Position numbers and translations under genes: made by a program. Under the pieces are notes generated by a model. It did no database searches. It was not told the DNA's origin and saw only the letters and a list, made by a program, of their open reading frames with translations. From an uncultured Clostridia bacterium (GTDB taxonomy: Bacteria; Bacillota; Peptococcia; Peptococcales; Peptococcaceae), in NCBI GenBank assembly GCA_944391625.1, contig CALXUG010000002.1, positions 16,168 to 40,167 on the forward strand: DNA of 24,000 bases, given 5' to 3'. Positions 4,757-21,324 of this stretch are shown one piece after another (the stretch's first letter is position 1; each line of letters opens with the position of its first letter).

Positions 4757-4910
4757 TTTTAATCTTATGTGCATTCCCATTATCAACAATTCTTTCATAA
4801 TAACTATACTGTACCACATTCCACAGATTACGTATATTATCTTTTACAAAATTTTCTGTATTTCCTTCCTATTGCCATTACACCAGATACCTGCTCCTGT
4901 TTTCAGAACA

Positions 4911-5075: not shown

Positions 5076-6107
5076 CTATTTGATTTCATTATTAAAATTC
5101 GGAAAGATACACATCTTTCCTCCTTCGGCAGGAATACAATATACCACTGGTTCTTTTATAAAAGGAATATATAAAAAGCTATCTCCTAAGCCATTTTCTC
5201 CAATAAATTCCACAAGAATAAGACCCTTATAAAAACCCAAACTGTTTATAACCGTTTGCTTTATATTTGGATAAGTCTTATATATCTCTTCTGTAATACT
5301 TTCCTCAATAGAAAAAATCCTTTTACATATGTTACTATTTGTATTAATTTTATAAATACTTTTCTCATCATACAAAAAAAAGTCTTCATCTACAGTAATA
5401 CAATTAATACAGTCTATGTCAATATCAAAAAAATCTTGCTTCGTTAAATATTTCATCAACTTTTCAGAAACATTTTCTATGTTATACATCTGTTTATCTC
5501 CAGAAACCAGATCAAGTTCTAATAATTTTAGACTATAATCATTTTGTGTTTCTTTTTTATCTGTTAACGGTTGATTTTCTATAAATAACATTTCTACTTT
5601 ATTATTTTTCTGCATTGCACCATAAATATGATATAAATTAGGTAAATACAAAGGTATTCTCCGTTCATCCACATGAAGTTCATATTCCCCTTTTTTATCC
5701 AGTTCTACCACATCAATAAAACCATTACCATCTATAGTCGAACGCCAAATAATATTTTTACTACTATTATCTGGAACCACCAAATACGGTTGCAACTGTG
5801 GATTTGCTACTATAGTTACCCCATTCCATCGTAAATTACACAAACCATATAGTGCCCCTGTTCCAGAAATTGCATTACCAGAAATTCTTCTCAATATATT
5901 TTCTTTGAGATCCCATTCCCCCAAAAAATCCTCTGGTCTTGATAAATTCTCAACTAATATTGGAATTGTATCTGGCATTTCTTCTAAATTTATTATATAT
6001 TGCTCCTCTATATCTTGAACCTCATCATCCCAGATACTCGCTTTCCCTACAAGAATAATCATCAACATCACCATTGCACAACATAAACACCCTATTATCT
6101 TCTTCAA
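5076..6107 (-). CDS. Hypothetical membrane-anchored protein (343 aa from a TTG start)
   Basis: The track ORF runs 5076-6125. I prefer the TTG at 6107, giving (M)KKIIGCLCCAMVMLMIILVG, because AGAGGTG sits 5 nt upstream. One N-terminal hydrophobic helix; the rest is predicted extracytoplasmic. No family recognised. Very AT-rich. Confidence 0.6.
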   Translation of the reverse strand: MKKIIGCLCCAMVMLMIILVGKASIWDDEVQDIEEQYIINLEEMPDTIPILVENLSRPEDFLGEWDLKENILRRISGNAISGTGALYGLCNLRWNGVTIVANPQLQPYLVVPDNSSKNIIWRSTIDGNGFIDVVELDKKGEYELHVDERRIPLYLPNLYHIYGAMQKNNKVEMLFIENQPLTDKKETQNDYSLKLLELDLVSGDKQMYNIENVSEKLMKYLTKQDFFDIDIDCINCITVDEDFFLYDEKSIYKINTNSNICKRIFSIEESITEEIYKTYPNIKQTVINSLGFYKGLILVEFIGENGLGDSFLYIPFIKEPVVYCIPAEGGKMCIFPNFNNEIK

Positions 6108-6140
6108 AATTACACCTCTTCCCAAATATATTTTATAAAC

Positions 6141-6190: not shown

Positions 6191-7468
6191 TTATGCGCCT
6201 TCATTAGTAACAGTTCCGTTAGAAAATGTCCATTTTTTCCCTTGTTCAGACAATTTCCACGCTGACTCGTTACCTGAATACCATCTTTCTCCTGCATTTA
6301 AGCCAAATTTTAATTGATTTTCATGCTCTTCTGCAAAAATTCTGTATGGAGTTGTTAACGCTCCTAAAGAATCATAGCTTAGTTGAGCAACAACTCTAAA
6401 TGCCCCATCATAAGTATTACCCTGATTACTTCCGGCATCTGAAGTAATAGACCAAAAATACGTTCTATTTGCAACTAAATCTTCTGTAGCTGCACACCCA
6501 ACACATTGTTGTATGATATTCGAACTATCTCCAAAACTAGTATCTAAATATGCATTTGGCAAATTAGTGGTGTAAGTTCTATGGGTTGTCTTTTGATAAG
6601 CATTTCCAGGATACTGACTGCTATTTTTTTCATTATAGAACATTAAAGTCATTTCTAATGCTTCGTTACTATCAACATTCAAATTGTTTAAGTTCGCAGA
6701 AGAAAATTCATGATACAATGTAGATCTATTTTTCCCACTTGATACATTTGAATCAAATTTTGCTTCAATATCATTCGGGTACCAATTATAACCACATGCC
6801 CTTCTATTGTTCCCATCACCTAAATGAGGGTTTGTACCATTACTAGCACATTTCGTTTTAGTACCATTTAATGAATTATACCAATAGATATTACCATCTT
6901 TTATATGATAACTGCTGTCTACAGCAAGCAATGGCATCGGCACATTATCTACTGTTGGATAACTTACATTTTCATATGGGTCATCTAGATTCATAATTAT
7001 ACTTTCCTGAGTATAACTTCCTTGTAAACTATATGAATTTTTCATTTCTTTTGCTGGAACTATTGTTTCCACTTTTTTTACTACAAGGTCATCTAAAGAA
7101 ATACTCTTATTAACTTCCAATTTTTCTTCATTTAATAATGTTTCATTTACAAAATCTACTTCATTTTTTAATTGCGTTAAAAGTTCTTCATAGGAAACTC
7201 CTTGTTCTTCATCCCGATATCCAATAGTAAGCTCTTCTCCAGCAACATTTACGCTACATTGTATTTCAGAAATCCCTTCTTCCAAAATCGCAATATTATG
7301 TTGATTCGATTCTGATGTCAACATAATATCGTTAAATTCATAAGATATTACCCGAACTCCATTGTTTATATCGGCTACTGTATCTGTAGCTAAAGCTGGA
7401 AAACTACTAAATGTAAATACTGATAAATTAATCAATGCAAATGCTGTCATCTTTTTTACTCTATTCAT
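6191..7468 (-). CDS. Hypothetical secreted protein (425 aa) with Sec signal peptide
   Basis: The track ORF runs 6191-7504. I place the start at the ATG at 7468 because GAGGAG sits 5 nt upstream. MNRVKKMTAFALINLSVFTFSSFPALA/TDT looks like a signal peptide with an AxA cleavage site. The C-terminal half is rich in N, S, T and Y. No family recognised. Confidence 0.65.
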   Translation of the reverse strand: MNRVKKMTAFALINLSVFTFSSFPALATDTVADINNGVRVISYEFNDIMLTSESNQHNIAILEEGISEIQCSVNVAGEELTIGYRDEEQGVSYEELLTQLKNEVDFVNETLLNEEKLEVNKSISLDDLVVKKVETIVPAKEMKNSYSLQGSYTQESIIMNLDDPYENVSYPTVDNVPMPLLAVDSSYHIKDGNIYWYNSLNGTKTKCASNGTNPHLGDGNNRRACGYNWYPNDIEAKFDSNVSSGKNRSTLYHEFSSANLNNLNVDSNEALEMTLMFYNEKNSSQYPGNAYQKTTHRTYTTNLPNAYLDTSFGDSSNIIQQCVGCAATEDLVANRTYFWSITSDAGSNQGNTYDGAFRVVAQLSYDSLGALTTPYRIFAEEHENQLKFGLNAGERWYSGNESAWKLSEQGKKWTFSNGTVTNEGA

Positions 7469-7646
7469 TTTTTCTCCTCGCTTTTTGATAGAATTTATGC
7501 GCATTCATTCTTCTATATAAATTAGGTACAATATTTTTTAGGATCCTAATTGATATTGTTCACAAAAAATATAACATATAATAGTTAATATAGTTCATTT
7601 TCCGTAATTATCGCTCATTTATTTGTAATTATCGTATCTTCAACTC

Positions 7647-9275
7647 TTACACCTTCACCAATGCTTCAACCCTTTTCCCATCCATAAACATCACTTCTAT
7701 TTTATCCTTCTGCAGTACTGTTATCCGTTGAATAATCTTCCGCACCAGCATGTCATTATAGTTGCTCAAATCGAAATTCATCTGCCCGATGATTTCTATT
7801 AACTCTTCATCGATATGTTCTCTATCTGCTCCGATTCGTTCTGCTATCTGACTATTTTGTTTCTCACTATATAATTGCTTCAGTTCGTTTTCTAACTCCT
7901 GAAACTTCTGATCAAAATAATCTAAGTCTGCGGATGTCATGCTCAATAATTCGGATAAATCCAATATAGATTGTTCAATACTTTTTATCTTTTCGTCTAT
8001 CTCCTCAGAATCTTCGTTTGGTACAAATTTTTCTGCTTTGCGCATTCCTTCTTTCAATAACCATTTTAACTCTTCCTGATTTTGAACATATTGATTTATC
8101 GCCCATAGGATTGCCTCATGCAAATCTGTTTCTTCCAATGTCGGTGATTGTCTGCAATATTTGAGCCCATTTTTTAACCGATTGATGCAGCGCCAAACTA
8201 CTTTTTTCTTCCCTTTCTTAGCCCAGGTCACTCTCCGATACGGTGTTCCGCAGTCTCCGCAAATTAGTAACTCTGTCAGCGCATACTGCCCACTGTATCT
8301 TCCCTGCCCAACATCATGAAAAGAATCTTTCTTTTTCACAGCATTCCGCTGTGCCAGTTCTGCTTGAATTAAATAAGCTACTTCTCTGCTTCGTATAGCT
8401 GGATGATGATCCTTTACATAATACTGCGGCAGCTCCCCCTTATTTTCTTTACGTTTATGTTCCAACATATCCACTGTGAATGTTTTCTGCAGCAGCACAT
8501 CACCCATATATTTTTCATTTAACAATATCCGTTTAATTGTTCCCGCCTGCCATTTTTCATTTCCTTTTACGGTTTTAATTCCTCTCTGTTCCAGCATGGC
8601 TTTTATCTGATATAAACTCATTCCAGACAAAAATGCCATATCAATCAATTGTACAATTCTTGCTTCCTGGGGAACAATTTTCCACTCTCCAGCTTTATTT
8701 ACATCAAATCCCAAGATTTTACAACCTCTTCTTAGTTTTCCCTGTTTATATTCTTTCTGTAAAGCCCAGGTTATATTCTTACTGATACTTTCGCTCTCTG
8801 CCTGTGCAAAGGAGCTATATAGTGTCAGGATCATCTCACTGGATATATCCAAGGTATTGATATTTTCTTTTTCAAAAATAATTGCAATTCCTTTTTCCTT
8901 CAACTTTCGAACATAATTCAAAGTATCCAGCGTATTTCTAGCAAATCGGGAAATCGATTTTACCAAAATCACATCTACTTTGCCTTCTTCACAAAGCTGC
9001 ATCAATCTTAAAAATTCTGTTCTGTTTTTTGTCCTGGTACCAGAAATACCCTCATCGGCAAAAATACCAATCAAAACCCAGTCAGGATTATTGGCAATCA
9101 ATTGTGTATAATAAGCTACTTGAGCATCAAAACTGGTCTGCTGATCCTCTTCATCTGTACTAACCCTGCAATACGCAGTCACCCATTTTTTCTTTGGCAA
9201 AATTGTTCTTACATTATGATATGCTGCTACTTCTTTTACCGGTATGCAAGTTACAGTTCTCTTTTCATTTGTCAT
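7647..9275 (-). CDS. Large serine recombinase (542 aa)
   Basis: Track ORF. Resolvase catalytic domain (YCRVSTDEEDQ with the nucleophile Ser, VKSISRFARN), recombinase domain, Cys-rich zinc ribbon (CGDCG...CINRLKNGLKYC) and a C-terminal coiled coil. AAGGAG lies upstream. Confidence 0.9.
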   Translation of the reverse strand: MTNEKRTVTCIPVKEVAAYHNVRTILPKKKWVTAYCRVSTDEEDQQTSFDAQVAYYTQLIANNPDWVLIGIFADEGISGTRTKNRTEFLRLMQLCEEGKVDVILVKSISRFARNTLDTLNYVRKLKEKGIAIIFEKENINTLDISSEMILTLYSSFAQAESESISKNITWALQKEYKQGKLRRGCKILGFDVNKAGEWKIVPQEARIVQLIDMAFLSGMSLYQIKAMLEQRGIKTVKGNEKWQAGTIKRILLNEKYMGDVLLQKTFTVDMLEHKRKENKGELPQYYVKDHHPAIRSREVAYLIQAELAQRNAVKKKDSFHDVGQGRYSGQYALTELLICGDCGTPYRRVTWAKKGKKKVVWRCINRLKNGLKYCRQSPTLEETDLHEAILWAINQYVQNQEELKWLLKEGMRKAEKFVPNEDSEEIDEKIKSIEQSILDLSELLSMTSADLDYFDQKFQELENELKQLYSEKQNSQIAERIGADREHIDEELIEIIGQMNFDLSNYNDMLVRKIIQRITVLQKDKIEVMFMDGKRVEALVKV

Positions 9276-9292: not shown

Positions 9293-10117
9293 TTATACCA
9301 ATTTATCATTTATCATTAAACACTGAATGATTTCATCTGGATTCAATACTATTTTTTTCACGCTATGTTCAATCAGTTCAAAGTCTGGTTCACTTAAAAC
9401 TGTCTGTTGCTGATACAAGTTCTTTAATATTTTTGTGTTGTATGTATGATCCAACGCACTGCAATTCTGATATCGTTCAGCTGCCGCCTGATAAATCAGC
9501 GCCGCTATCTCTTCATCTGCCTTTTTCCGTTCTTTGATTTCCTGTAGTATTTCATTATTCATCTGCATGACAGCTAACGATAACCGAAATGGCTGTTCTT
9601 TTTCAATATCCAGCAGCGCAGGATGTTCTATAATCTGATTTTGTTTTGCCATCAGTTTTTCTTTTAATATATCATCGGTAATATAATTTTTTGTTGTTTT
9701 CCATTCACTTTGGCACTGCCAATTAACGATTGCGCCTATCTTTTCTCGATATACATGACTTCCACAATGCCCACAAATCAGTTTTGCACGAAACGCCTTC
9801 GGCCATTCTGTCTTTACTGCCCGATTACTTGCTTTCTTTTCTTTTAGCAGCTGCACTGCTTCCCATTGCAGTGGATCTATTAATTGCGAATAACCATTGA
9901 TACCACAGTACTCTTCTCGCTCTAAAATACGTTTCACCATATTTTTGTTCCAACCGCAATCATCGTCCCGATAAGCAACTTTTCCTTCCGCTAACCACTG
10001 AGCCAATTGCCCATAGGAATACCCCTGCTGATATTTGCTAAAAATCTGCTGCACAGCCTCCCCTTCTTTTGGATGCGCCACTATCACCCCATCTACAATC
10101 TGATAACCAAATGGCAA
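9293..10117 (-). CDS. Recombinase-domain plus zinc-ribbon protein lacking the resolvase catalytic domain (274 aa as called from TTG)
   Basis: Track ORF. It begins (L)PFGYQIVDGVIVAHPKEGEAVQQIF, which is the start of the serine-recombinase 'recombinase' domain. CGHCG...WQC forms a zinc ribbon. There is no S-R catalytic N-domain and no SD before the TTG. The true start is uncertain (see findings). Confidence 0.7.
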   Translation of the reverse strand: MPFGYQIVDGVIVAHPKEGEAVQQIFSKYQQGYSYGQLAQWLAEGKVAYRDDDCGWNKNMVKRILEREEYCGINGYSQLIDPLQWEAVQLLKEKKASNRAVKTEWPKAFRAKLICGHCGSHVYREKIGAIVNWQCQSEWKTTKNYITDDILKEKLMAKQNQIIEHPALLDIEKEQPFRLSLAVMQMNNEILQEIKERKKADEEIAALIYQAAAERYQNCSALDHTYNTKILKNLYQQQTVLSEPDFELIEHSVKKIVLNPDEIIQCLMINDKLV

Positions 10118-10165
10118 TCGTCTGTTTTTTTGTTTTTTCCTGTATTCACTTTTACCCCTCCATCT

Positions 10166-10591
10166 TTAACCCAGTCCTTGCAGCATTGCAGGCGCTGCTT
10201 TTTCATAATCGGGTTCTTCATCATTTTCAAACTGTATTTTTTCAGATAACCCTAAACTAATTGCTAAGGCCGCATCTACCTGCTGCATCACAGCTGCACC
10301 AAAATGACCCATGTATCGCCGCAATCTTTGCCGATCCAGAGTACGGACCTGCTCTAACAAAATTAACGTTTTATCCCGCAGCCCAAACGCTTCACCGGAA
10401 ATACAAATATGTGTTGGCAGATTGTGTTTATTCTGCTGGCTTGTTATTGCTGCTGCTATCACTGTTGGACTGTAATGATTCCCCACATCATTTTGAATAA
10501 TCACCACTGGCCGAATTCCTCCCTGTTCGCATCCAACAGATGGATTCAAATCAGCATAGTAAATATCCCCACGCCGCACTGCTGTTTTCAT
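10166..10591 (-). CDS. PemK/MazF-family endoribonuclease toxin with an acidic C-terminal extension (141 aa)
   Basis: Track ORF. RGDIYYADLNPSVGCEQGGIRPVVIIQND and LEQVRTLDRQRL are typical MazF/PemK segments. AAGAGGAGA overlaps the end of the upstream recombinase gene, and the ATG lies 7 nt after that gene's stop. Confidence 0.85.
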   Translation of the reverse strand: MKTAVRRGDIYYADLNPSVGCEQGGIRPVVIIQNDVGNHYSPTVIAAAITSQQNKHNLPTHICISGEAFGLRDKTLILLEQVRTLDRQRLRRYMGHFGAAVMQQVDAALAISLGLSEKIQFENDEEPDYEKAAPAMLQGLG

Positions 10592-10598
10592 ACTATTT

Positions 10599-12146
10599 TC
10601 ATCTCCTCTTTACATTCAATTTTTCCCGAAACTGAAATCCGCCAGATAAATAAAAAACGGCATCATCTTCCTCGGTTATCACAATTTTAGTAACCATCTT
10701 CAGAAACAGCTCCTCTGGAAAAACTTCTAACCGCTGCGGTCCTTTTTCTATTAGGCTTATCAATGTTTTAACCCGGTTGATTACTTGATTCCCCCGTACT
10801 CTCTGCATCAACGCTTCTCCTCTGGCTTGTTTCAACTGCTCATTCAATTCCCGAATTTTTTCTATAAAAATAGCAGATTCAAGATGCCCTCGACTTTGCA
10901 GCCTTGAAAGGACCTGAATCTGCTTTTGAATTTTTATTGTTTCTTTTCCTGTTTCTAACGAGATACTTTCTCCCAACTGGTTCTGATATAATAATTCCAG
11001 CTGCTGCAAAGCTGGCACTAATACTTTTTTATAATTTATCTTCAATTTATGATACATTGTCATAAATGCTTCGTAAATACTGTTTTCTTCTATTGCCATA
11101 ATCGGGCATTCTTCTTTCCCTCTGACATGGGTTTGACATACCCAATATAACTTACTCCCATTGGTTTTATAGCGCAGTTTACTTCCGCAATAATCACAAA
11201 ACAATTTATTCTGCAGTACTCGATTGTTTTTCATAGAAAGCGATTGCTCTGGTTTTATCTGCTCTATCAAACGCTGTGTTTTTTCTGCTTCTTCTTTTGT
11301 AATCATTGCATCCTGCGCATGTTCTATATAAAACTGTTCCCTCTGGCCTTGATTTGCCTTTCTCACATACGGTAACGTATCGGTTGTATAGGTTTTCTGC
11401 ACTAAGGCATCTCCAAAATATTTTTCATTCAATAACAGGTATCGAATACCTGATGCTGTCCACACACCATTATGTTTCTCTTTCGGCACTCTAAAATAAT
11501 TTAGCGTATCTGCAATCTTCTGACAGCTATTGCCAGCCAGAAACTGCCTATAGATCCACTGCACCACCGGCTTTTCCTGTTCATTGACGATCAGATTGCC
11601 GTCTTGCAGTGTGTACCCATATGGTGCACAGGTTGTAATAAATAACCCTTGCTCCATTCTGCGTTTAAACGTCCAGCGAATATTTCTGGATAAGGAACGG
11701 GACTCTTCTTCTGACAAACAGCCGAAAAAAGTAAGCAGCAGTTCATCATCCAACTCACTGGTATTGACATGTTCTTTTTCAAATATCACACTGATATTCA
11801 AACCTTTTAGTTTTCTTATATAAAACAGGCATTCCTCAATATTTCTGGCAAATCGGGATACCGACTTTACCAGAATGCAATCAATCTCTCCTGCCTGACA
11901 ATCTCTTATCATTTGCTGAAACCCTGGGCGCTTTTCCGCACTGGTTCCTGTAATTCCCTTATCGGAATAAATATCTACTAAAATCCAATCTGGGTGTTTC
12001 AAAATATATTCTCTGTAATAACTGATTTGAAACTCATAGGAGTTATTTTGGCTGTCTTCTTCGGTACTAACACGAGCGTAAGCACAGACTCGTTTTTTCT
12101 TTGTCTGCAGTTGCTTGATTGGCTCTATCACGAATACTTCTGGCAT
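10599..12146 (-). CDS. Large serine recombinase (515 aa)
   Basis: Track ORF. YARVSTEEDSQ catalytic motif, VKSVSRFARN, recombinase domain (APYGY), zinc ribbon (CDYCG...CQTH...C) and coiled coil. GAGGTG lies 7 nt upstream of the ATG. Confidence 0.9.
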   Translation of the reverse strand: MPEVFVIEPIKQLQTKKKRVCAYARVSTEEDSQNNSYEFQISYYREYILKHPDWILVDIYSDKGITGTSAEKRPGFQQMIRDCQAGEIDCILVKSVSRFARNIEECLFYIRKLKGLNISVIFEKEHVNTSELDDELLLTFFGCLSEEESRSLSRNIRWTFKRRMEQGLFITTCAPYGYTLQDGNLIVNEQEKPVVQWIYRQFLAGNSCQKIADTLNYFRVPKEKHNGVWTASGIRYLLLNEKYFGDALVQKTYTTDTLPYVRKANQGQREQFYIEHAQDAMITKEEAEKTQRLIEQIKPEQSLSMKNNRVLQNKLFCDYCGSKLRYKTNGSKLYWVCQTHVRGKEECPIMAIEENSIYEAFMTMYHKLKINYKKVLVPALQQLELLYQNQLGESISLETGKETIKIQKQIQVLSRLQSRGHLESAIFIEKIRELNEQLKQARGEALMQRVRGNQVINRVKTLISLIEKGPQRLEVFPEELFLKMVTKIVITEEDDAVFYLSGGFQFREKLNVKRR

Positions 12147-13638: not shown

Positions 13639-14007
13639 GGAAATCACCTCCTAGTATAATAATGATGTAGTCAAGAATGACTACTTGATTAATTAGTTTC
13701 TATACAGATAACAAAAGAATGTGTTCTTCCTTCATCAGATGTTATCCATACTAATCATCATGTCTGACGGTTCCTGATAGACACCGGATAAAACATAAGG
13801 TATCATCCTTTAGGATAGGACAAATAATGTATCACTCCTTGGGATGCTGTTTTAATCAGCCCATACCTACAAGAAAGTCAATTAGTCCATTCGGCAGGGT
13901 TTTATGTTTTAGCTGGTTGGGAGCCGGAAGGCCATACCCGAATAACACGCTAGGTTGTGTACCTGTCAGACTGGAAATGGATTCCTATCAGAAAGGAGCT
14001 TCCGCTC

Positions 14008-15324
14008 ATGTCAAACAAAATTATTTTTAATCTTGATGAATTATTCATCTCTGTTGGCATTGATGTCAGCGCTGACTTCTCATGGATGTCTATTGCACTT
14101 CCAAACCAACAGTTTGTAGGAAAGCCTTATAAAATCCTACACAATAGCATGGATTCCCTTTCAACCGCTGTTTCTAAAATAAAAGAAGCAGAAGAGTTGT
14201 ATTCTTTGGAAAGTCGCATTTTCCTCGAATCCACGGGAGTTTATCATTACCCACTCTTCTGCTATCTTCGTGATAAGGGTTTTAACTGCTCGGTTATAAA
14301 TCCTATCATCACTAAGAATAGCACAAATATCAACATACGAAAAGTGCATAATGACCGTTTTGATTCTAAAAAAGCTGCTTTAGTTGGTTTGAAACCTGAT
14401 TTAAAGGTTTCTCTTATGCCTTCTGACCTTGTTCTAAACTGCCGCAATCTCTCTCGTGAATACTACGATTTAATGGATAACCGCAGTGCTTATGTGAACA
14501 AGCTTCAAGGGGAACTGCGTATGGCATTTCCACAGTATCTTGGCATTTTCTCCAAGGTTACCACTCATACATCTCTTACCTTATTGGAAACTTATACGTC
14601 TCCATCTGCCTTTATTGCAGCCGACAAGCAAGAGATGATTGACACTATCAGGTCAACTGCCCGCTTTGGACTTACATATGCTCAGAACAAGTATAATGCC
14701 ATTATAAAGGCTGCTAATGAAGCCAATGAATTTGGTTACATCATTGACAGCAACATCAAGCGGATTCGCCTGTATATCAGTTTCATTCGCAAATATGATG
14801 AAGAAATCAACAATATTCTGCAAGCAATGCATGAACTCGTAAATGCTAATGAAGATACTGATTTTGTCAAACAGATTCACTTAATCGAAACATTTAAAGG
14901 TGCTGGCTTTTTATCTGCCGTATCTCTTATGGGAGAGATTGGTGATTTTTCTGCTTTTTCAAAACCAAAACAGCTTTTTGCTTACTTTGGGCTGGATCCG
15001 GCTGTAAAACAATCCGGTAAATTTGAAGGCACCAAAATTCAAATGTCGAAAAGAGGGTCTGTTATAGCCAGACGGGTTATTCATACCCTTACTTTACAAA
15101 GCATCAGTATATCTCGCACAGGAGAAGCAAAAAATCCGGTACTTCGTGATTACTATCTCAAAAAATGTGAATCAAAACCAAAGCTTGTTGCAATGGGCGC
15201 TGTTTCACACAAGGTATGCAACATCATATTTGCAATCCTAAGAGATAACAAACCTTTTGAAATCATGACTCCACAGGAGCATATCCAACAATACAATGCT
15301 GCTAAATGCCACATAGCTGCATAA
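14008..15324 (+). CDS. IS110-family DEDD transposase (438 aa)
   Basis: The track ORF runs 13957-15324. I place the start at the ATG at 14008 after GAAAGGAG. N-terminal VGIDVSADFS and LESTGVYH (DEDD RuvC-like domain). C-terminal GAGFLSAVSLMGEIGDFSAFSKPKQLFAYFGLDPAVKQSGKF (Transposase_20 domain). Confidence 0.9.
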   Translation: MSNKIIFNLDELFISVGIDVSADFSWMSIALPNQQFVGKPYKILHNSMDSLSTAVSKIKEAEELYSLESRIFLESTGVYHYPLFCYLRDKGFNCSVINPIITKNSTNINIRKVHNDRFDSKKAALVGLKPDLKVSLMPSDLVLNCRNLSREYYDLMDNRSAYVNKLQGELRMAFPQYLGIFSKVTTHTSLTLLETYTSPSAFIAADKQEMIDTIRSTARFGLTYAQNKYNAIIKAANEANEFGYIIDSNIKRIRLYISFIRKYDEEINNILQAMHELVNANEDTDFVKQIHLIETFKGAGFLSAVSLMGEIGDFSAFSKPKQLFAYFGLDPAVKQSGKFEGTKIQMSKRGSVIARRVIHTLTLQSISISRTGEAKNPVLRDYYLKKCESKPKLVAMGAVSHKVCNIIFAILRDNKPFEIMTPQEHIQQYNAAKCHIAA

Positions 15325-15823: not shown

Positions 15824-16177
15824 ATGTTTGATTTTACTCAACCTTTAGCCGATGTGATAAAACGGGCGCGGGAGCACCATGAGCTGACGCAAACCCAACT
15901 GGCTGAGCAGATTAATATTGATACCCGCACAGTACTCAACATTGAAAACTGCAAAGGGAATCCCAAAATGCAGGTTTTATTTCCGCTTATCCGCACACTC
16001 AACGTCGATCCTAACGATATTTTTTATCCGGAGCGTTTAAAACAAAACTCTAAACGCAATGACCTGCACCTTTTAGTTGATACCTGCTCAGAGCAGGAAG
16101 CCGCTGCTTTAATTGCCATCATAGATTCTATCTTGAAGGTAATGCGTAACCAGGGACCAACCAATCTGCAAAAGTAA
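15824..16177 (+). CDS. XRE-family helix-turn-helix transcriptional regulator (117 aa)
   Basis: Track ORF. LTQTQLAEQINIDTRTVLNIENCKGNP is a Cro/C1-type HTH. GAGGTG lies 7 nt upstream. Divergent from the sigma-like gene, as orf9 is from orf7 in Tn916. Confidence 0.85.
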   Translation: MFDFTQPLADVIKRAREHHELTQTQLAEQINIDTRTVLNIENCKGNPKMQVLFPLIRTLNVDPNDIFYPERLKQNSKRNDLHLLVDTCSEQEAAALIAIIDSILKVMRNQGPTNLQK

Positions 16178-17654: not shown

Positions 17655-18553
17655 CTACAGTAATATATCGACCCAACTATAATCTTCTTTTTTATTATAA
17701 TTTGCAGCCAAGTAAAAAAGTGTAAGATATGCTTGCATTGCTTTCAAATAATCAGGATTAACCACAATACTCAATTCATTTTGATACGCTTGTAAAAATG
17801 CAAGAATCAATTCTTCGTCTGGGTTTTCGTTACAGATAGTAGCAAGGTCTTGATAGTAATATCCGTATGAACATAACTCAAAATCAATCGGGGTAAATTG
17901 TGAGTTATTTTTAATCAAGTTATATGAATAGAAGTCGCCATGAATTAACCCTTTTGTATTTTCTTTCATGGACATCGCCTTCATTATACAGTTAATTTTA
18001 TCGCCAGCATCAACTGCAATGTGAAATATGTTTTCATCGAAAAATCCCATTTTGCATCCTAATGAAATTCTTTCCAGAAAAAAATCAATTCTTTCTTCAT
18101 CAAATGGTAATCTTGGGCATCGTTTAGCGATATTAGTATAACGCATACTTGCCTTATGGATTTTAGCCAGTAATTTCCCAATAGCAGAATAATCTGTTAA
18201 AGTAAGTTCCTTTACTTCTGCCTCTTCACCATCAATCCATTCAGTTATAATATACAAAGTATTTTCATATTTGGTAACATATTCCTGCTCTTTATTCTTG
18301 ACAGGTTTTTGTACAGGCAACCCATTTTCTTGTAAGAAACGAAGATACTCCATTTCATACTTAAGTGCTTCATTGGAATATGCGTTGATACCAAACAAAG
18401 AGGCATCATAATCTTGATTATATGTTTTCAATAGATATATGCCATCGTTCGAAACAATTTTCCAAACGCTATTCATATTACCCACACTTTTTCCGTGGTA
18501 TATGTATCCATATCATAGTTCATTAGAATTTGATTTACGAAATCCATCTTCAT
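17655..18553 (-). CDS. APH/CotS-type phosphotransferase (kinase-like fold); apparent -1 frame break at an A5 run
   Basis: The track ORF 17655-18485 has YLLK (ATP-binding Lys), LIHGDFYSYNL (catalytic loop) and IDFE (metal-binding Asp). An ATG at 18553, 18 nt after the radical SAM 2 stop and preceded by GAAGGT, opens MKMDFVNQILMNYDMDTYTTEK in the other frame. This joins the main ORF through a -1 shift at the A5 run (18488-18492). Confidence 0.75.
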
Positions 18554-18571
18554 AACACATTACCTTCTAAA

Positions 18572-19951
18572 CTATTCAGGTAGAATTGGACTATTAGTAG
18601 TTATAATGCTATATAAATCCCTAACCATAAAATCCAGAGTTGTTTTAGCATGAACACAAAAGCCTGGGTCAATGGCATCATATACCGATTTTTCAGAATT
18701 ACGCATACCGTTTATAGGACATCCACCACCACATATTCCCAATGCTTTGCATGATAAACATTCATCTTTATTGACAGGACTGATCTGGCACCATTTCTGC
18801 ATTTCATCCGATTGTTCTAAAGGATCTCTGCTACTAACATCAGTAAAAAAGAACTCTTTGTTTTCAATACAACCTTGGCATATACCAATTCGACCATCCG
18901 GCAACACAACAATCTGGCTACCTGAAGTAGCTGCACAATCAGATAAATACGGAGTACCATCAACAAAAGCTTCTACCTTCCGATTAATACGATCCTCATA
19001 TATACCACGAATTCTTGCGATCTTAAAGAAATCTACAATAAATTTTGATGCCTTTTTGTAATAATCGGTACTCATTTGAAAATCCGGGGTCGAATACAGC
19101 AAATTAAAGCTTACAGCATTGATTTGATATTTATCAAGTAAGGATATAATATCATCTGGATTACTAATTGTTTTTTCTGTAAGAGTTATAGATAGCCCAA
19201 CTTCATATTCACTTTCCTTAACAAGTTCAAGCACTTCCAGTAAATTATCATAAATAGGATTTCCTGATTTATTCACACGATTAATGTTTGATTCGAAATC
19301 AATACCATCAATCGAAATGGAAATTGCCACATTATTCTCTTTCAAAAAATGTATTTTTTCCTTATCAAGGAGCAATCCATTTGTAACCATTGAGAAATTC
19401 ATTTCAGCGGTAATTTCATTATTGATTTGCATTTCCTTGCATCTGTCAATCACATACTTCAAAGTTTCAAAGTTTAACAATGGCTCTCCGCCATAGAAAA
19501 TGATTTCTTTGCTATGCCCAAACCATTCCGGATGTGTTTTATTTTGGAAAGAAAAATACTGGAGTGCCTTATCAGCAATTTCCTTTTCCATCATCGGCAT
19601 TTGATGCTGCATAATATTTGTATTTGCATTGCCCAAAAAACAATATTTACATGCCAGATTACATTTTTCGGATAAAATTAAATACATAATCGTTGGATAT
19701 GGTGTAAACAATTTTTCTCTAACACGGTTCAAAAGCAAAGCGTCTTCAGCCGGACTATTAACTATAATCTTGTTCTTGACCAACTCGCTATATACCTCAA
19801 CAGGCAAGGAACTTGGTAGTTCATTCGCCGAAACAGATGAAATAATAAAATGATCTTCTTCTCTCACATAAACAGGTTGTAATTGCAAGCTATTGTAATA
19901 AGCATAACTACCGTCATCCATTTTAAATGTATGCGAAAATTTCGATAACAT
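18572..19951 (-). CDS. Radical SAM / SPASM-domain peptide-modifying enzyme 2 (459 aa)
   Basis: The track ORF runs 18572-19987. I prefer the ATG at 19951 (MLSKFSHTFKMDDGSYAYYNSL...) with GAGG 7 nt upstream. The ATG at 19987, which overlaps the upstream stop, is an alternative. CNLACKYC (C97/C101/C104), YGGEPLL, twitch-like CAATSGS...GICQGC, and CLSCKALGICGGGC (CX2CX5CX3C SPASM motif). Confidence 0.9.
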   Translation of the reverse strand: MLSKFSHTFKMDDGSYAYYNSLQLQPVYVREEDHFIISSVSANELPSSLPVEVYSELVKNKIIVNSPAEDALLLNRVREKLFTPYPTIMYLILSEKCNLACKYCFLGNANTNIMQHQMPMMEKEIADKALQYFSFQNKTHPEWFGHSKEIIFYGGEPLLNFETLKYVIDRCKEMQINNEITAEMNFSMVTNGLLLDKEKIHFLKENNVAISISIDGIDFESNINRVNKSGNPIYDNLLEVLELVKESEYEVGLSITLTEKTISNPDDIISLLDKYQINAVSFNLLYSTPDFQMSTDYYKKASKFIVDFFKIARIRGIYEDRINRKVEAFVDGTPYLSDCAATSGSQIVVLPDGRIGICQGCIENKEFFFTDVSSRDPLEQSDEMQKWCQISPVNKDECLSCKALGICGGGCPINGMRNSEKSVYDAIDPGFCVHAKTTLDFMVRDLYSIITTNSPILPE

Positions 19952-19980
19952 AGTTTTTCCTCGCTTTCCATAGATAATAA

Positions 19981-21324
19981 CTACCATAATAAGAAGTCAT
20001 TTGATTCAATCATTAGACGATATAAATTTTCTTTGTATTCTGCACTGCAATTTCGTGGTGCCAACTTCTCAATGTCCACTAAGTATAAATCATCTATTTT
20101 TGTAATTTCATTATAGTTGGCAATTCGACAACCGCCACCACAAACATATCTTAGGTCACACTGATTACAAGGCGTAAATGTTTCAATACTTGACAATTTA
20201 CGTGCAGTTTTTCTTAAACGTAATATTTCAGAAAACTCATCCTCACGTATATTACCATATTTTTTCACTTCATAAACCCGGCCACAAAAAGATACATCTC
20301 CCTGAGAATTTACCGTAAGAGAGCCATATCCACAATTACGAAATATCGTGTTATATTGATGATTTTTCACAAACAATGTTAATTCGTTATTGGGGTATAT
20401 TTCCTCACAAAGTTTTTTTATAGTTTCTGCATAAGCGGCATTGCGTTCCTTAGAAGATTTCACTTTCCTACCATCAATAATTTCGTTTCCGAAAATAATC
20501 AAAAAATCTTTATCTTCATATTTATCCACCAAAGCATTGCCAAACTCTACATATTCATTAAAATATGTTTCCGCATAACCGTATAGTGGAGTAACAATGA
20601 TAGACGTAAAAATGCCTGCATTAAGGAATTGATCCACCGTTTTCAGTGCTTTATCAAATGCACCTTTTCCTCTAATTTCAGCATTCACGTTTTCGTTAAA
20701 CCCATCGATGCTTATCTGAATTTCATCGATATATGGTTTAGCTTCTTCAAATAACGCTTTTGTCCAAGCCGCTCCATTTGATAGCACTTGAGTATACATA
20801 TTATATTCTTTTGCAATTATTAATGCTGGAACAAATGATTTGGATAACGCAACTTCACCGCCTGTTAAGATTAATTTTGTAGCACCAGCTTTGGCACTTT
20901 TTTTAATCAGAGTAATGATTTCTTCTGTTGACAATTCATTTGCAAAAGAATTGTCTGCATACATAAAACAATGCTTACATCTCAAATTACAGTTATTAGT
21001 CAAATAAATGCGCAATTCAAATGAATCGTCATCAAAAGATTCGAAAGTATGTTCCAGATGTTTTCCTTCAATTTGAGCCAATACATATTTTACATCTTCT
21101 TCGTAGCCGTCAAATTGTTTGAATGTATCACCAACTGTACTTTTTCTAAAAATATGTTGAAAAATATCCCGCTGCGTTTGAGTTTCCAAAACAATCCAAC
21201 TCCCATTTTGGGGTGATATATATAACCAAAACCCATAACGGTGGATAATTGTTATATCGGATGGTAAAGAGTATATTTTATTTTCATCAACGCTACAAAC
21301 AAAATTGTTATATTCAATATCCAT
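19981..21324 (-). CDS. Radical SAM / SPASM-domain peptide-modifying enzyme 1 with N-terminal RRE-like extension (447 aa)
   Basis: Track ORF. GGAG lies 7 nt upstream of the ATG at 21324. CNLRCKHC (C112/C116/C119), LTGGEV, CGYGSLTVNSQGDVSFCG, and CNQCDLRYVCGGGC (CX2CX5CX3C). The first ~100 aa (…GSWIVLETQTQRDIFQHI…DVKYVLAQIEGK) look like a PqqD-type peptide-binding domain. Confidence 0.9.
   Translation of the reverse strand: MDIEYNNFVCSVDENKIYSLPSDITIIHRYGFWLYISPQNGSWIVLETQTQRDIFQHIFRKSTVGDTFKQFDGYEEDVKYVLAQIEGKHLEHTFESFDDDSFELRIYLTNNCNLRCKHCFMYADNSFANELSTEEIITLIKKSAKAGATKLILTGGEVALSKSFVPALIIAKEYNMYTQVLSNGAAWTKALFEEAKPYIDEIQISIDGFNENVNAEIRGKGAFDKALKTVDQFLNAGIFTSIIVTPLYGYAETYFNEYVEFGNALVDKYEDKDFLIIFGNEIIDGRKVKSSKERNAAYAETIKKLCEEIYPNNELTLFVKNHQYNTIFRNCGYGSLTVNSQGDVSFCGRVYEVKKYGNIREDEFSEILRLRKTARKLSSIETFTPCNQCDLRYVCGGGCRIANYNEITKIDDLYLVDIEKLAPRNCSAEYKENLYRLMIESNDFLLW

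What the first reader, a model, noticed from the sequence alone, without database searches (positions are those of the whole stretch)
9293..10591. MazF toxin gene and a catalytic-domain-less recombinase gene share one frame across a single TAA, with an out-of-frame SD-GTG and an A AAA AAC heptamer between them
Seen: the MazF ORF ends …AMLQGLG-TAA at 10166-10168. The 16 codons after it (RWRGKSEYRKKQKNRR) have no stop and run in the same frame into LPFGYQIVDG…, where a serine recombinase's 'recombinase' domain normally begins. The called TTG start at 10117 has no SD. GGAGGGG (10155-10161) sits 5 nt before a GTG (10147-10149) that is in the +1 frame and stops after 18 codons. That short frame crosses A AAA AAC (10132-10138), a classical -1 slippery heptamer (the IS1-type A6C site). 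A -1 slip there lands in the recombinase frame. The MazF protein has no upstream antitoxin gene (the upstream gene is a recombinase, translationally coupled) and carries a ~30-aa acidic tail (FENDEEPDYE…). Inference, several readings: (a) a former MazF-recombinase-domain fusion, with the nuclease domain replacing the resolvase catalytic domain, now split by a nonsense codon; (b) a recombinase-domain protein made by programmed frameshifting or phase-variable A-tract slippage; (c) a homopolymer assembly error hiding a plain GTG start. In any case the DNA-binding half of a recombinase is expressed next to a toxin inside a recombinase operon. That could make it the toxin's partner or antitoxin, or an addiction module for the element.
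Basis: partly seen in the sequence, partly recalled or inferred. Interest (0 to 1): 0.7.

Follow-up and report, generated by a model that had tools for sequence, protein, structure and literature searches.

The report
One-base deletion breaks recombinase-partner gene start
The odd junction is a real one-base deletion in a run of A's that knocks the normal start of a recombinase-like gene out of frame in one widespread strain variant; it is not a toxin-recombinase fusion or a recoding device, although the gene belongs to a large, apparently undescribed family of recombinase partners that lack the catalytic domain.

Summary
The cause is simple. The middle gene normally starts at the SD-GTG (10161-10147). 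In this window the first A-tract is A6 (10138-10133), while 14 distinct related contigs have A7. With A7 the GTG is in frame and the protein begins VNTGKKQKNRRLPFGY, which includes a motif invariant in the family.

The A6 allele is not an assembly error. Ten further contigs from at least three sample series carry it. All are 100% identical to the window over 1,299 bp, so they form one clonal haplotype. Every other haplotype has A7.

The shared frame with MazF and the A AAA AAC heptamer are by-products of the deletion. I found no stimulatory RNA structure, no conservation of the frameshift and no fusion protein anywhere.

The middle gene belongs to a large family of ~285-aa proteins made of the C-terminal DNA-binding half of a large serine recombinase. 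Each starts at its own ATG, and nearly all sit just upstream of a full-length recombinase gene, usually between two. MazF is movable cargo: upstream of rec1 in 26 of 46 informative relatives, and at this junction only in this lineage, where other relatives carry Phd-ParE. The middle protein is unlikely to be MazF's antitoxin. Interest is low to moderate.

The parts
10599..12146 (-). rec1: full-length large serine recombinase (515 aa), the first gene of the three-gene module
   Evidence: Pfam Resolvase+Recombinase+Zn_ribbon_recom. The RVST catalytic-serine motif is visible in the translation.
10166..10591 (-). MazF/PemK-family endoribonuclease gene (141 aa plus TAA). It is cargo inserted between rec1 and the middle gene in this lineage only.
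   Evidence: PF02452 at E=1.5e-33. The best solved relatives are B. subtilis-type EndoA/MazF at E~1e-37. Relatives L006/L007/L009/L010 lack it at this position. pN/pS is 0.09-0.23.
10169..10252 (-). MazF C-terminal tail (residues 114-141, acidic), specific to this lineage
   Evidence: It lies beyond the Pfam match. The region is hypervariable in length and sequence among homologues. It has no PDB or Pfam similarity. Residues 118-141 have pLDDT below 50 in a modest model (mean pLDDT 62).
10155..10161 (-). Shine-Dalgarno GGAGGGG of the middle gene
   Evidence: It sits 5 nt upstream of the GTG and is identical in all related contigs.
10147..10149 (-). Native GTG start codon of the middle gene, out of frame in this allele
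   Evidence: It is in frame in all A7 alleles. Two cluster members are called as 285-aa proteins from this start (P0281, P0283).
10133..10138 (-). A6 tract: site of the 1-nt deletion (A7 in all other haplotypes). With C10132 it forms the A AAA AAC heptamer.
   Evidence: Alignments and a pattern scan. It is the only uncompensated indel in 6.5 kb against the 98.5%-identical L008.
10125..10131 (-). Second A7 tract (codons for K-Q-K-N), unchanged
   Evidence: It is A7 in all 25 verified sequences. An A7 run is also present in distant relative L006.
10093..10149 (-). 18-codon dead-end ORF read from the GTG in this allele (VNTGKNKKTDDCHLVIRL, then TAG)
   Evidence: Read directly from the sequence.
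9293..10138 (-). Body of the middle gene ('recDelta'): recombinase domain, zinc-ribbon-like CxxC...C segment and helical C-terminus of a large serine recombinase, with no catalytic domain. The ORF caller's TTG start at 10117 clips the invariant QKNRR motif.
   Evidence: Only Pfam Recombinase is found. Invariant columns in the family alignment. AlphaFold model at pLDDT 71, with Foldseek top hits to LSR C-terminal domain-DNA complexes 4KIS and 9y66 at probability 1.0. The top 150 family representatives are 237-463 aa (149 of them at most 332 aa) and match from their residue 1-8, almost all from 2-5.
7647..9275 (-). rec3: full-length large serine recombinase (542 aa), the constant downstream partner of the middle gene
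   Evidence: Pfam. An LSR follows the middle gene in 68 of 71 informative loci.

Best explanation
The locus is the integration/excision module of a clostridial integrative element. It has two full-length large serine recombinases (rec1, rec3) flanking a conserved ~285-aa protein. That middle protein is only the DNA-binding C-terminal half of such a recombinase.

The middle gene normally starts at a strong SD-GTG, 16 nt after the upstream stop codon. In this lineage a stand-alone MazF toxin gene has been inserted between rec1 and that SD.

In the haplotype sampled by the window, one A has been lost from an A7 tract at codons 5-6 (A7 to A6). The GTG therefore now reads an 18-codon dead-end frame. 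The rest of the gene is left without a usable start, because the TTG has no SD and would clip the invariant QKNRR motif.

The apparent continuity with the MazF frame and the A AAA AAC heptamer are automatic consequences of deleting one A from GGA AAA AAA CAA.

What is shown: the deletion, its reality across samples, its clonal distribution, and the family-wide gene architecture.

What is inferred: (1) the allele is null or strongly hypomorphic for the middle protein; (2) that protein is a non-catalytic DNA-binding or regulatory partner of rec3/rec1; (3) MazF is maintenance or defence cargo, not a partner of the middle protein.
For: - A7-C-A7 is present in 14 distinct related contigs, and A6-C-A7 in the window plus 10 contigs.
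- The A6 contigs come from at least three sample series (ERR40965xx; BRZ_ ERZ24773xxx; ONAT22-1 ERZ2861xxxx). All are 100% identical to the window over 1,299 bp, and they differ by about 1.6% or more from every A7 haplotype.
- The exact 274-aa and 253-aa calls of this allele are on 12 and 21 contigs.
- None of 11 distinct A7-allele protein sequences carries the window haplotype's private substitutions.
- Q-K-N-R-R before FGY is invariant in the close family.
- Almost all of the 80 species-level loci show an ordinary ATG just before (K/Q)(N/R)(R/K)x(I/L/T)PFGY.
- A full LSR lies upstream in 57 of 65 informative loci and downstream in 68 of 71.
- 242 clusters match at E<=1e-30. The best 150 are 237-463 aa (149 of them at most 332 aa) and match from their first few residues.
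- The fold matches the LSR C-terminal domain.
- MazF is absent from this junction in L006/7/9/10. It lies upstream of rec1 in 26 of 46 informative loci.
- A Phd-ParE pair occupies the same rec1|middle-gene junction in 8 loci.
- No terminator-like site lies between MazF and the middle gene.
Against: - pN/pS of the middle gene between the A6 haplotype and its A7 relatives is 0.18-0.29. That is within the range seen between A7 lineages, so there is no clear sign of pseudogene decay. The deletion may be recent, or the ORF may still be expressed at some level.
- A -1 slip on A AAA AAC would restore a near-native protein (VNTGKNQKNRR...), so a hypomorph cannot be told apart from a null.
- My look-ups of the A6 haplotype were by exact protein sequence. 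An A7 version of the same haplotype could therefore exist among the 8 cluster members not listed.
- The function of the middle protein is inferred from domain content only.
Confidence: 0.8

Rival explanations
1. Expression by slippage. The A6 allele still makes functional middle protein, either through -1 ribosomal frameshifting on A AAA AAC or through transcriptional slippage on the A6/A7 runs. The deletion would then act as an expression attenuator and not as a knockout.
For: - The heptamer is in the correct register of the SD-GTG frame, and a -1 slip lands in the conserved frame with only a K6N change.
- The ORF downstream shows no obvious decay.
- The haplotype is widespread.
Against: - There is no stimulatory structure downstream (z=0.31, with 116 of 200 shuffles folding at least as well).
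- The heptamer is common in this AT-rich window (18 occurrences against 12 expected).
- The heptamer is the automatic residue of deleting one A from Lys-Lys codons.
- No other haplotype or family member uses a frameshift here.
- The 'upstream ORF' is only 6 codons, unlike known programmed sites.
- From general knowledge, unstimulated A AAA AAC slips at roughly the 1% level or below.
Confidence: 0.1
2. Phase variation. The A-tract switches reversibly between A7 (ON) and A6 (OFF) by slipped-strand mispairing, toggling the middle protein and hence element mobility.
For: - Both lengths exist in nature at comparable contig counts, roughly 33 A6 against 42 A7.
- The site is a homopolymer at the very start of the gene.
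Against: - Tract length segregates perfectly with haplotype. 11 of 11 sequences of the window haplotype are A6, and 14 of 14 distinct contigs of other haplotypes are A7.
- No A7 protein carries the window haplotype's private substitutions.
- The adjacent A7 tract never varies.
- From general knowledge, A6/A7 is short for a contingency tract.
Confidence: 0.06
3. Sequencing or assembly error. The true sequence is A7, and the window simply miscounts a homopolymer.
For: - The difference is a single base in a homopolymer.
- It is the only frame-breaking indel in 6.5 kb compared with a 98.5%-identical relative.
Against: - The same A6 was assembled independently in 10 other contigs from at least three sample series, always on the same haplotype.
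- A7 haplotypes are assembled as A7 in a sibling sample series from the same archive (ERZ2861xxxx).
- Other genes in the window with long homopolymers are intact.
Confidence: 0.03
4. Toxin partner or former fusion. The middle protein is MazF's antitoxin or partner, or the two genes descend from a MazF-recombinase-domain fusion split by a nonsense codon.
For: - The two genes are adjacent and probably co-transcribed.
- No MazE gene is present.
- They share a frame across one TAA in this allele.
Against: - In the intact A7 alleles the two genes are in different frames.
- The middle-gene family is conserved in loci with no MazF at all. Where a MazF is present, it lies upstream of rec1.
- No fusion is found among 80 loci, 150 family representatives or 120 MazF homologues.
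- The window MazF is closest (~70% identity) to ordinary 120-128-aa clostridial MazFs. This suggests separate capture, although the genomic context of those homologues was not examined.
- The frameshifted middle gene coexists with a conserved, catalytically intact-looking MazF in a widespread clone.
Confidence: 0.03

Closest known systems
Triplets of serine integrases at the ends of streptococcal ICEs (Ambroset et al. 2016, PMC4701971)
   Same: Three adjacent, co-oriented recombinase-family genes sit near one end of an integrative element. Sometimes a few cargo CDSs lie between the genes and the element boundary. The genes cluster by position: external, middle, internal.
   Different: That paper states that all the streptococcal proteins have the N-terminal Resolvase catalytic domain. 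Here the middle member lacks it across the whole family.
Isolated C-terminal domain of a large serine recombinase bound to an attP half-site (Listeria innocua integrase, PDB 4KIS; also 9y66, 9dxd, Bxb1 9iu2)
   Same: The model of the middle protein matches these chains best (Foldseek probability 1.0), and its order of helices and strands is compatible with the same domain succession.
   Different: 4KIS is a laboratory truncation. Here the truncated form is a natural, separately initiated gene. TM-scores are low (0.27-0.37), which fits a flexible multi-domain protein and a model of only moderate confidence.
Bacillus subtilis EndoA/MazF and the mazEF type II toxin-antitoxin module (PDB 4MDX, 1NE8, 4ME7)
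   Same: Roughly 60% identity by eye in the printed alignment, E~1e-37. The Arg in GG-R-P and the Thr in AAIT are conserved. That these two residues are catalytic is from my recollection of the EndoA literature.
   Different: No MazE gene is adjacent, and the gene sits inside a recombinase operon. It has a 28-aa lineage-specific tail, of which residues 118-141 have pLDDT below 50.
IS1-type A AAA AAC (-1) programmed frameshift site
   Same: The identical heptamer, in the correct register relative to an SD-led start.
   Different: There is no conserved overlap of two substantial ORFs, no stimulatory structure, and no conservation in relatives. The heptamer arose from a 1-nt deletion in Lys-Lys codons.
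PemK/MazF gene listed two locus tags from a serine recombinase gene in the Clostridioides difficile 023_CTnT island (PMC6814731, Table 1)
   Same: A MazF-family gene is annotated close to a serine recombinase gene in a clostridial conjugative transposon.
   Different: This is annotation only. No CTD-only recombinase gene and no triplet are described there.

Membership tests
Large serine recombinase (for the middle protein) | N-terminal resolvase-type catalytic domain with the nucleophilic serine | tested here: not met
   Pfam finds no PF00239 in the 290-aa open frame. Gaps between rec1 and the middle gene are mostly <150 nt, leaving no room for a separate catalytic exon. Family representatives match from their first few residues.
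Large serine recombinase (for the middle protein) | Recombinase domain (PF07508) followed by a zinc-ribbon and helical C-terminal region | tested here: met
   PF07508 at E=2.9e-13. PF13408 is recorded for homologue P0003. A CxxC...C motif is invariant. The fold matches 4KIS and 9y66. The window subfamily has only three conserved cysteines.
Serine-integrase triplet of ICEs (Ambroset 2016) | Three adjacent co-oriented recombinase genes near an element end | tested here: met
   The order rec1-middle-rec3 is seen in the window. It is also seen in 57 of 65 (upstream LSR) and 68 of 71 (downstream LSR) informative loci. Homology with L008 ends near window position 4908.
Serine-integrase triplet of ICEs (Ambroset 2016) | All three proteins carry the Resolvase catalytic domain | tested here: not met
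   The middle protein lacks it. The paper states that all streptococcal members have it.
MazF/PemK toxin | PemK fold and sequence with conserved catalytic Arg and Thr | tested here: met
   PF02452 at E=1.5e-33. EndoA matches at E~1e-37. R27 and T50 are invariant in 24 homologues. Their catalytic role is from prior knowledge of EndoA.
mazEF type II toxin-antitoxin module | Adjacent (normally upstream) MazE/AbrB- or RHH-type antitoxin gene | tested here: not met
   The upstream gene is rec1 and the downstream gene is the middle gene. No antitoxin family appears among the window ORFs scanned. The MazF copies in related elements also lack a recognisable MazE.
Programmed -1 ribosomal frameshift site | Slippery X XXY YYZ heptamer in the zero frame | tested here: met
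   A AAA AAC at 10138-10132, in the GTG frame.
Programmed -1 ribosomal frameshift site | Downstream stimulatory structure, and conservation of the frameshift arrangement in homologues | tested here: not met
   The downstream fold has z=0.31. All other haplotypes and almost all of the 80 family loci are in frame with a plain start.
Phase-variable homopolymer (contingency locus) | Tract-length variation among otherwise identical sequences | tested here: not met
   11 of 11 sequences of the window haplotype are A6, and all other haplotypes are A7. Within-sample read heterogeneity could not be examined.

The most novel reading that the evidence does not exclude
The ~285-aa protein made only of a serine recombinase's C-terminal domain is an obligatory non-catalytic subunit or built-in directionality/targeting factor for the flanking large serine recombinases. 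I found no description of this kind of accessory in the searchable literature. On this reading the A6 allele is a natural off-state, or a frameshift-dependent low-expression state, that locks the element in the chromosome. The element meanwhile carries an antitoxin-less MazF that is kept in check by something other than a neighbouring gene.
Probability: 0.25. Interest if true: 0.6.

Novelty: new variant of a known kind. Interest (0 to 1): 0.3.

Why it matters
For the finding as posed, the value is corrective. An apparent recoding or fusion signal is really a 1-bp deletion allele, and annotation pipelines mis-call it as a 274-aa or 253-aa protein.

The context is of more interest.

- A very large family of clostridial integrative elements uses a three-gene recombinase module. 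Its middle member has no catalytic domain (at least 242 clusters at 50% identity; 80 species-level genomes retrieved here). I found no description of it in the literature I could search.
- If this protein controls the site choice or directionality of the flanking integrases, it would matter for understanding ICE mobility in gut Firmicutes. It would also matter for engineering multi-component serine integrases.
- The A6 haplotype would then be a ready-made natural knockout for testing this.
- Toxin genes recur inside this operon (MazF, Phd-ParE), which points to the rec1|middle-gene junction as a cargo slot.

Tried and rejected
- **Assembly error.** This was my working conclusion. I withdrew it when exact-sequence look-ups showed the A6 allele in many independent contigs.
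- **Pattern scans for the junction.** The JGI metagenome scan gave only one A7 contig. The GTDB genome scan and the IMG/VR scan gave nothing.
- **Frameshift stimulator.** The RNA downstream of the heptamer folds no better than shuffles.
- **Heptamer enrichment.** None was found.
- **MazF tail as a fused MazE-like inhibitory peptide.** It has no PDB or Pfam similarity. Residues 118-141 have pLDDT below 50 in a modest monomer model (mean pLDDT 62). This test is weak, because the MazE groove forms only in the MazF dimer.
- **Relaxed selection on the frameshifted gene.** pN/pS is inconclusive.
- **Defence-system membership.** PADLOC gave no hits, and PHROGs gave only generic MazF and integrase families.
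- **Literature on catalytic-domain-less middle recombinases.** Three searches found none. This is absence from the searchable library only.
- **Sigma-factor look-up to trace the IS110 insertion.** There was no exact match. The HTH_16 look-up gave partial information.
Full report
**1. Observation**

All relevant genes are on the minus strand.
- rec1: 12146..10599, 515 aa.
- MazF: 10591..10166, 141 aa.
- An ORF called from TTG: 10117..9293, 274 aa.
- rec3: 9275..7647, 542 aa.

- The TAA is at 10168-10166.
- 16 open codons in the same frame lead into LPFGYQIVDG.
- GGAGGGG is at 10161-10155, 5 nt before GTG at 10149-10147.
- An 18-codon frame runs from that GTG and ends at TAG 10095-10093.
- A AAA AAC is at 10138-10132, in register with the GTG frame, followed by a second A7 tract.

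Pfam finds Resolvase+Recombinase+Zn_ribbon in rec1 and rec3. It finds PemK_toxin over residues 6-113 of MazF. In the middle ORF it finds the Recombinase domain only.

**2. What the junction is**

The protein search returned few but telling relatives.
- A 93%-identical protein reads ...GGVKVNIGKKQKNRRLPFGY. This is the window's GTG frame joined seamlessly to the recombinase frame.
- Homologues at 53-59% identity, 284-286 aa long, begin MYSxKQKNRR or MKTYMKQQKNRR.

A DNA alignment of five contigs encoding the close relative shows GG-A7-C-A7, where the window has GG-A6-C-A7. A sixth contig, found by a pattern scan and carrying the window's own ACA codon, also has A7.

With A7 the SD-GTG opens the gene in frame, and MazF is in a different frame. 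The residues Q-K-N-R-R before FGY are invariant in the close family. The TTG call would therefore remove a conserved motif.

Against the 98.5%-identical contig L008, this is the only uncompensated indel in 6.5 kb.

**3. Error or allele?**

I first took this for a homopolymer miscount. Exact-sequence look-ups refuted that.
- The window's 274-aa product is on record on 12 contigs.
- A 253-aa call of the same sequence is on 21 more, mostly 20-200 kb contigs.
- Ten of these loci were fetched. All read A6-C-A7 and are 100% identical to the window over the 1,299 bp from the MazF start to the middle-gene stop.
- They come from at least three sample series (ERR40965xx; BRZ_ assemblies ERZ24773xxx; ONAT22-1 assemblies ERZ2861xxxx).
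- 14 distinct contigs of other haplotypes, 1.6-4.7% divergent, all read A7-C-A7.
- None of 11 distinct A7-allele protein variants carries the window haplotype's private substitutions: Q to R in PFRLSL, and T to I and F to C in DEIIQCL.

So A6 is a real one-base deletion fixed in one clonal, widely sampled haplotype. It does not toggle among the sequences available.

**4. Why the 'recoding' features are by-products**

Deleting one A from GGA AAA AAA CAA necessarily leaves GGA AAA AAC, the A AAA AAC heptamer in the GTG frame. It also shifts the downstream frame by one, which happens to be the MazF frame.
- Sharing a frame with 16 open codons has a probability of about 0.1 at this composition.
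- 15 of 80 relatives also have the middle gene in frame with the upstream gene across one stop.
- AAAAAAC occurs 18 times in the window against 12.2 expected.
- The 82 nt downstream fold no better than shuffles (z=0.31).

A -1 slip would restore a near-native protein (VNTGKNQKNRR...). Low-level rescue therefore cannot be excluded, but nothing indicates that it is programmed.

pN/pS of the middle gene between the A6 haplotype and its A7 relatives is 0.18-0.29. For rec1 and rec3 it is about 0.1. Between A7 lineages the middle gene gives 0.24. The test is therefore uninformative about decay.

**5. The middle gene is a conserved, autonomous family**

A profile-guided scan of one genome per species returned 80 loci in Ruminococcus, Oscillospiraceae, Lachnospiraceae, Peptococcaceae and others.
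- In almost every locus the gene has its own ATG a few codons before (K/Q)(N/R)(R/K)x(I/L/T)PFGY.
- A full-length recombinase lies immediately upstream in 57 of 65 informative loci and downstream in 68 of 71.
- The gap to rec1 is usually under 150 nt, which leaves no room for a catalytic domain.

An exhaustive HMM search found 242 clusters (50% identity) at E<=1e-30. The best 150 are 237-463 aa (149 of them at most 332 aa) and match from their first few residues.

The AlphaFold model (pLDDT 71) matches C-terminal-domain-DNA complexes of large serine recombinases (4KIS, 9y66, 9dxd, Bxb1) with Foldseek probability 1.0. The best NCBIfam match is positions 153-402 of CcrA, below its cut-off.

The published streptococcal 'triplets of serine integrases' are the closest described arrangement. 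There, however, all three proteins are stated to have the catalytic domain. I found no paper describing a catalytic-domain-less middle member.

My mechanistic proposal is an inference from domain content and from the tight linkage to rec3. I propose that it is a non-catalytic att-site-binding or coiled-coil-interacting partner that assists or regulates the flanking integrases.

**6. MazF**

The toxin has its own SD and starts 7 nt after the rec1 stop. No terminator-like site separates it from the middle gene. It is about 60% identical by eye to B. subtilis-type EndoA/MazF, and the Arg and Thr of the active site are conserved.

It is cargo, not a partner of the middle gene.
- Relatives at 51-60% identity have rec1 directly coupled to the middle gene, with no MazF.
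- In 26 of 46 loci with enough upstream sequence, a MazF homologue (38-55% identical) lies upstream of rec1. It is often followed by a ~55-aa SHOCT_2-like ORF and is never preceded by a recognisable MazE.
- The window's MazF is closest (~70%) to ordinary 120-128-aa clostridial MazFs. This suggests a separate capture, although I did not examine where those homologues are encoded.
- The rec1|middle-gene junction is a cargo slot. It holds a Phd-ParE pair in 8 loci, an IS110-type transposase in one, and other genes elsewhere.

The 28-aa acidic tail lies in a region that is hypervariable among homologues. It has no PDB or Pfam similarity. Residues 118-141 have pLDDT below 50 in a modest model.

An intact, conserved MazF coexists with a frameshifted middle gene in a widespread clone. 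This argues that the middle protein is not its essential antitoxin. What restrains MazF is unknown. The candidates are a host MazE, the small ORFs of the element, or low intrinsic toxicity.

**7. Verdict**

The missing base is a genuine clonal deletion, not an error, a fusion relic or a programmed frameshift.

The finding itself is ordinary. The surrounding three-gene module, with its catalytic-domain-less middle member, is a new variant of the known serine-integrase triplet and deserves modest attention.

Noticed in passing
window 13957-15324 (+), between 13647 and 15824: An IS110-family transposase gene (Pfam DEDD_Tnp_IS110 plus Transposase_20) sits in the divergent intergenic region between the HTH_3 regulator gene (15824-16177) and the operon that runs sigma-70 r4, HTH_16, DUF4314, then the recombinases. 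In relative L006 these genes are only ~400 nt apart. Several short contigs carrying this element's HTH_16 gene, three of which also show the 253-aa or truncated middle-gene call, start exactly 87 nt upstream of the sigma gene, as expected from assembly breaks at this IS. Together with the frameshift, this suggests a decaying or immobilised element.
   Followed up: partly
window ~4908; genes 5076-6125 and 6191-7504 (-): Homology with the 98.5%-identical contig L008 ends at window position 4908, and the flanks differ beyond it. The window has fumarase and malate:quinone oxidoreductase genes, while L008 has unrelated small genes. The element end is therefore probably near 4908. Two proteins with no family match (349 and 437 aa, the latter with a signal-peptide-like N-terminus) lie between rec3 and the boundary.
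   Followed up: partly
L023 5278-5891; also L024, L028, L035, L062, L073, L075, L078: A Phd/YefM-ParE toxin-antitoxin pair is inserted at exactly the rec1|middle-gene junction in 8 of 80 related genomes. In L006/L007/L009 a similar pair lies just downstream of rec3. L072 has an IS110-type gene at the junction, and L016 has ~2 kb of other cargo. The junction behaves as a cargo slot that favours toxin genes.
   Followed up: partly
L013-L087 (e.g. L023 3131-3478, L055 3640-3999, L092 5001-5402): MazF homologues without any recognisable MazE are a recurrent backbone gene of this element family. They lie upstream of rec1 in 26 of 46 informative loci. They are usually followed by a 50-56-aa SHOCT_2-like ORF and are sometimes preceded by a small cysteine-rich protein. 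In another subgroup they are followed by a DinG-like helicase. The antitoxin, if there is one, is unidentified.
   Followed up: partly
L003 1908-3532; L075 6905-8498; L057 4424-5969; L036 6863-8450: Other members of the module are split into several tblastn pieces in some contigs (rec3 in L003, L075 and L036; rec1 in L057). Frame-breaking lesions in these recombinase genes therefore look common, either as real decay or as assembly errors.
   Followed up: no
window 9707-9746 (-), zinc-ribbon region of the middle gene: A short, highly divergent patch (REKIGAIVNWQCQSEWK against REKADKVMNWQCQQEGK) distinguishes haplotypes that are otherwise 95-98% identical. The pattern suggests mosaic recombination within the DNA-binding region.
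   Followed up: no
L012, L025, L029, L038 (and L051, L071, L074): A minority of loci show the middle gene without a full-length recombinase immediately upstream. L012, L025, L029 and L038 have the middle gene plus rec3 only. L051, L071 and L074 also lack a co-oriented recombinase immediately downstream. The tightest association is therefore middle gene plus downstream recombinase (68 of 71).
   Followed up: no
window 17655-21324 (-): The element carries two radical-SAM genes (one with a SPASM domain) next to an APH-type kinase gene. This may be a peptide-modification cargo cluster.
   Followed up: no
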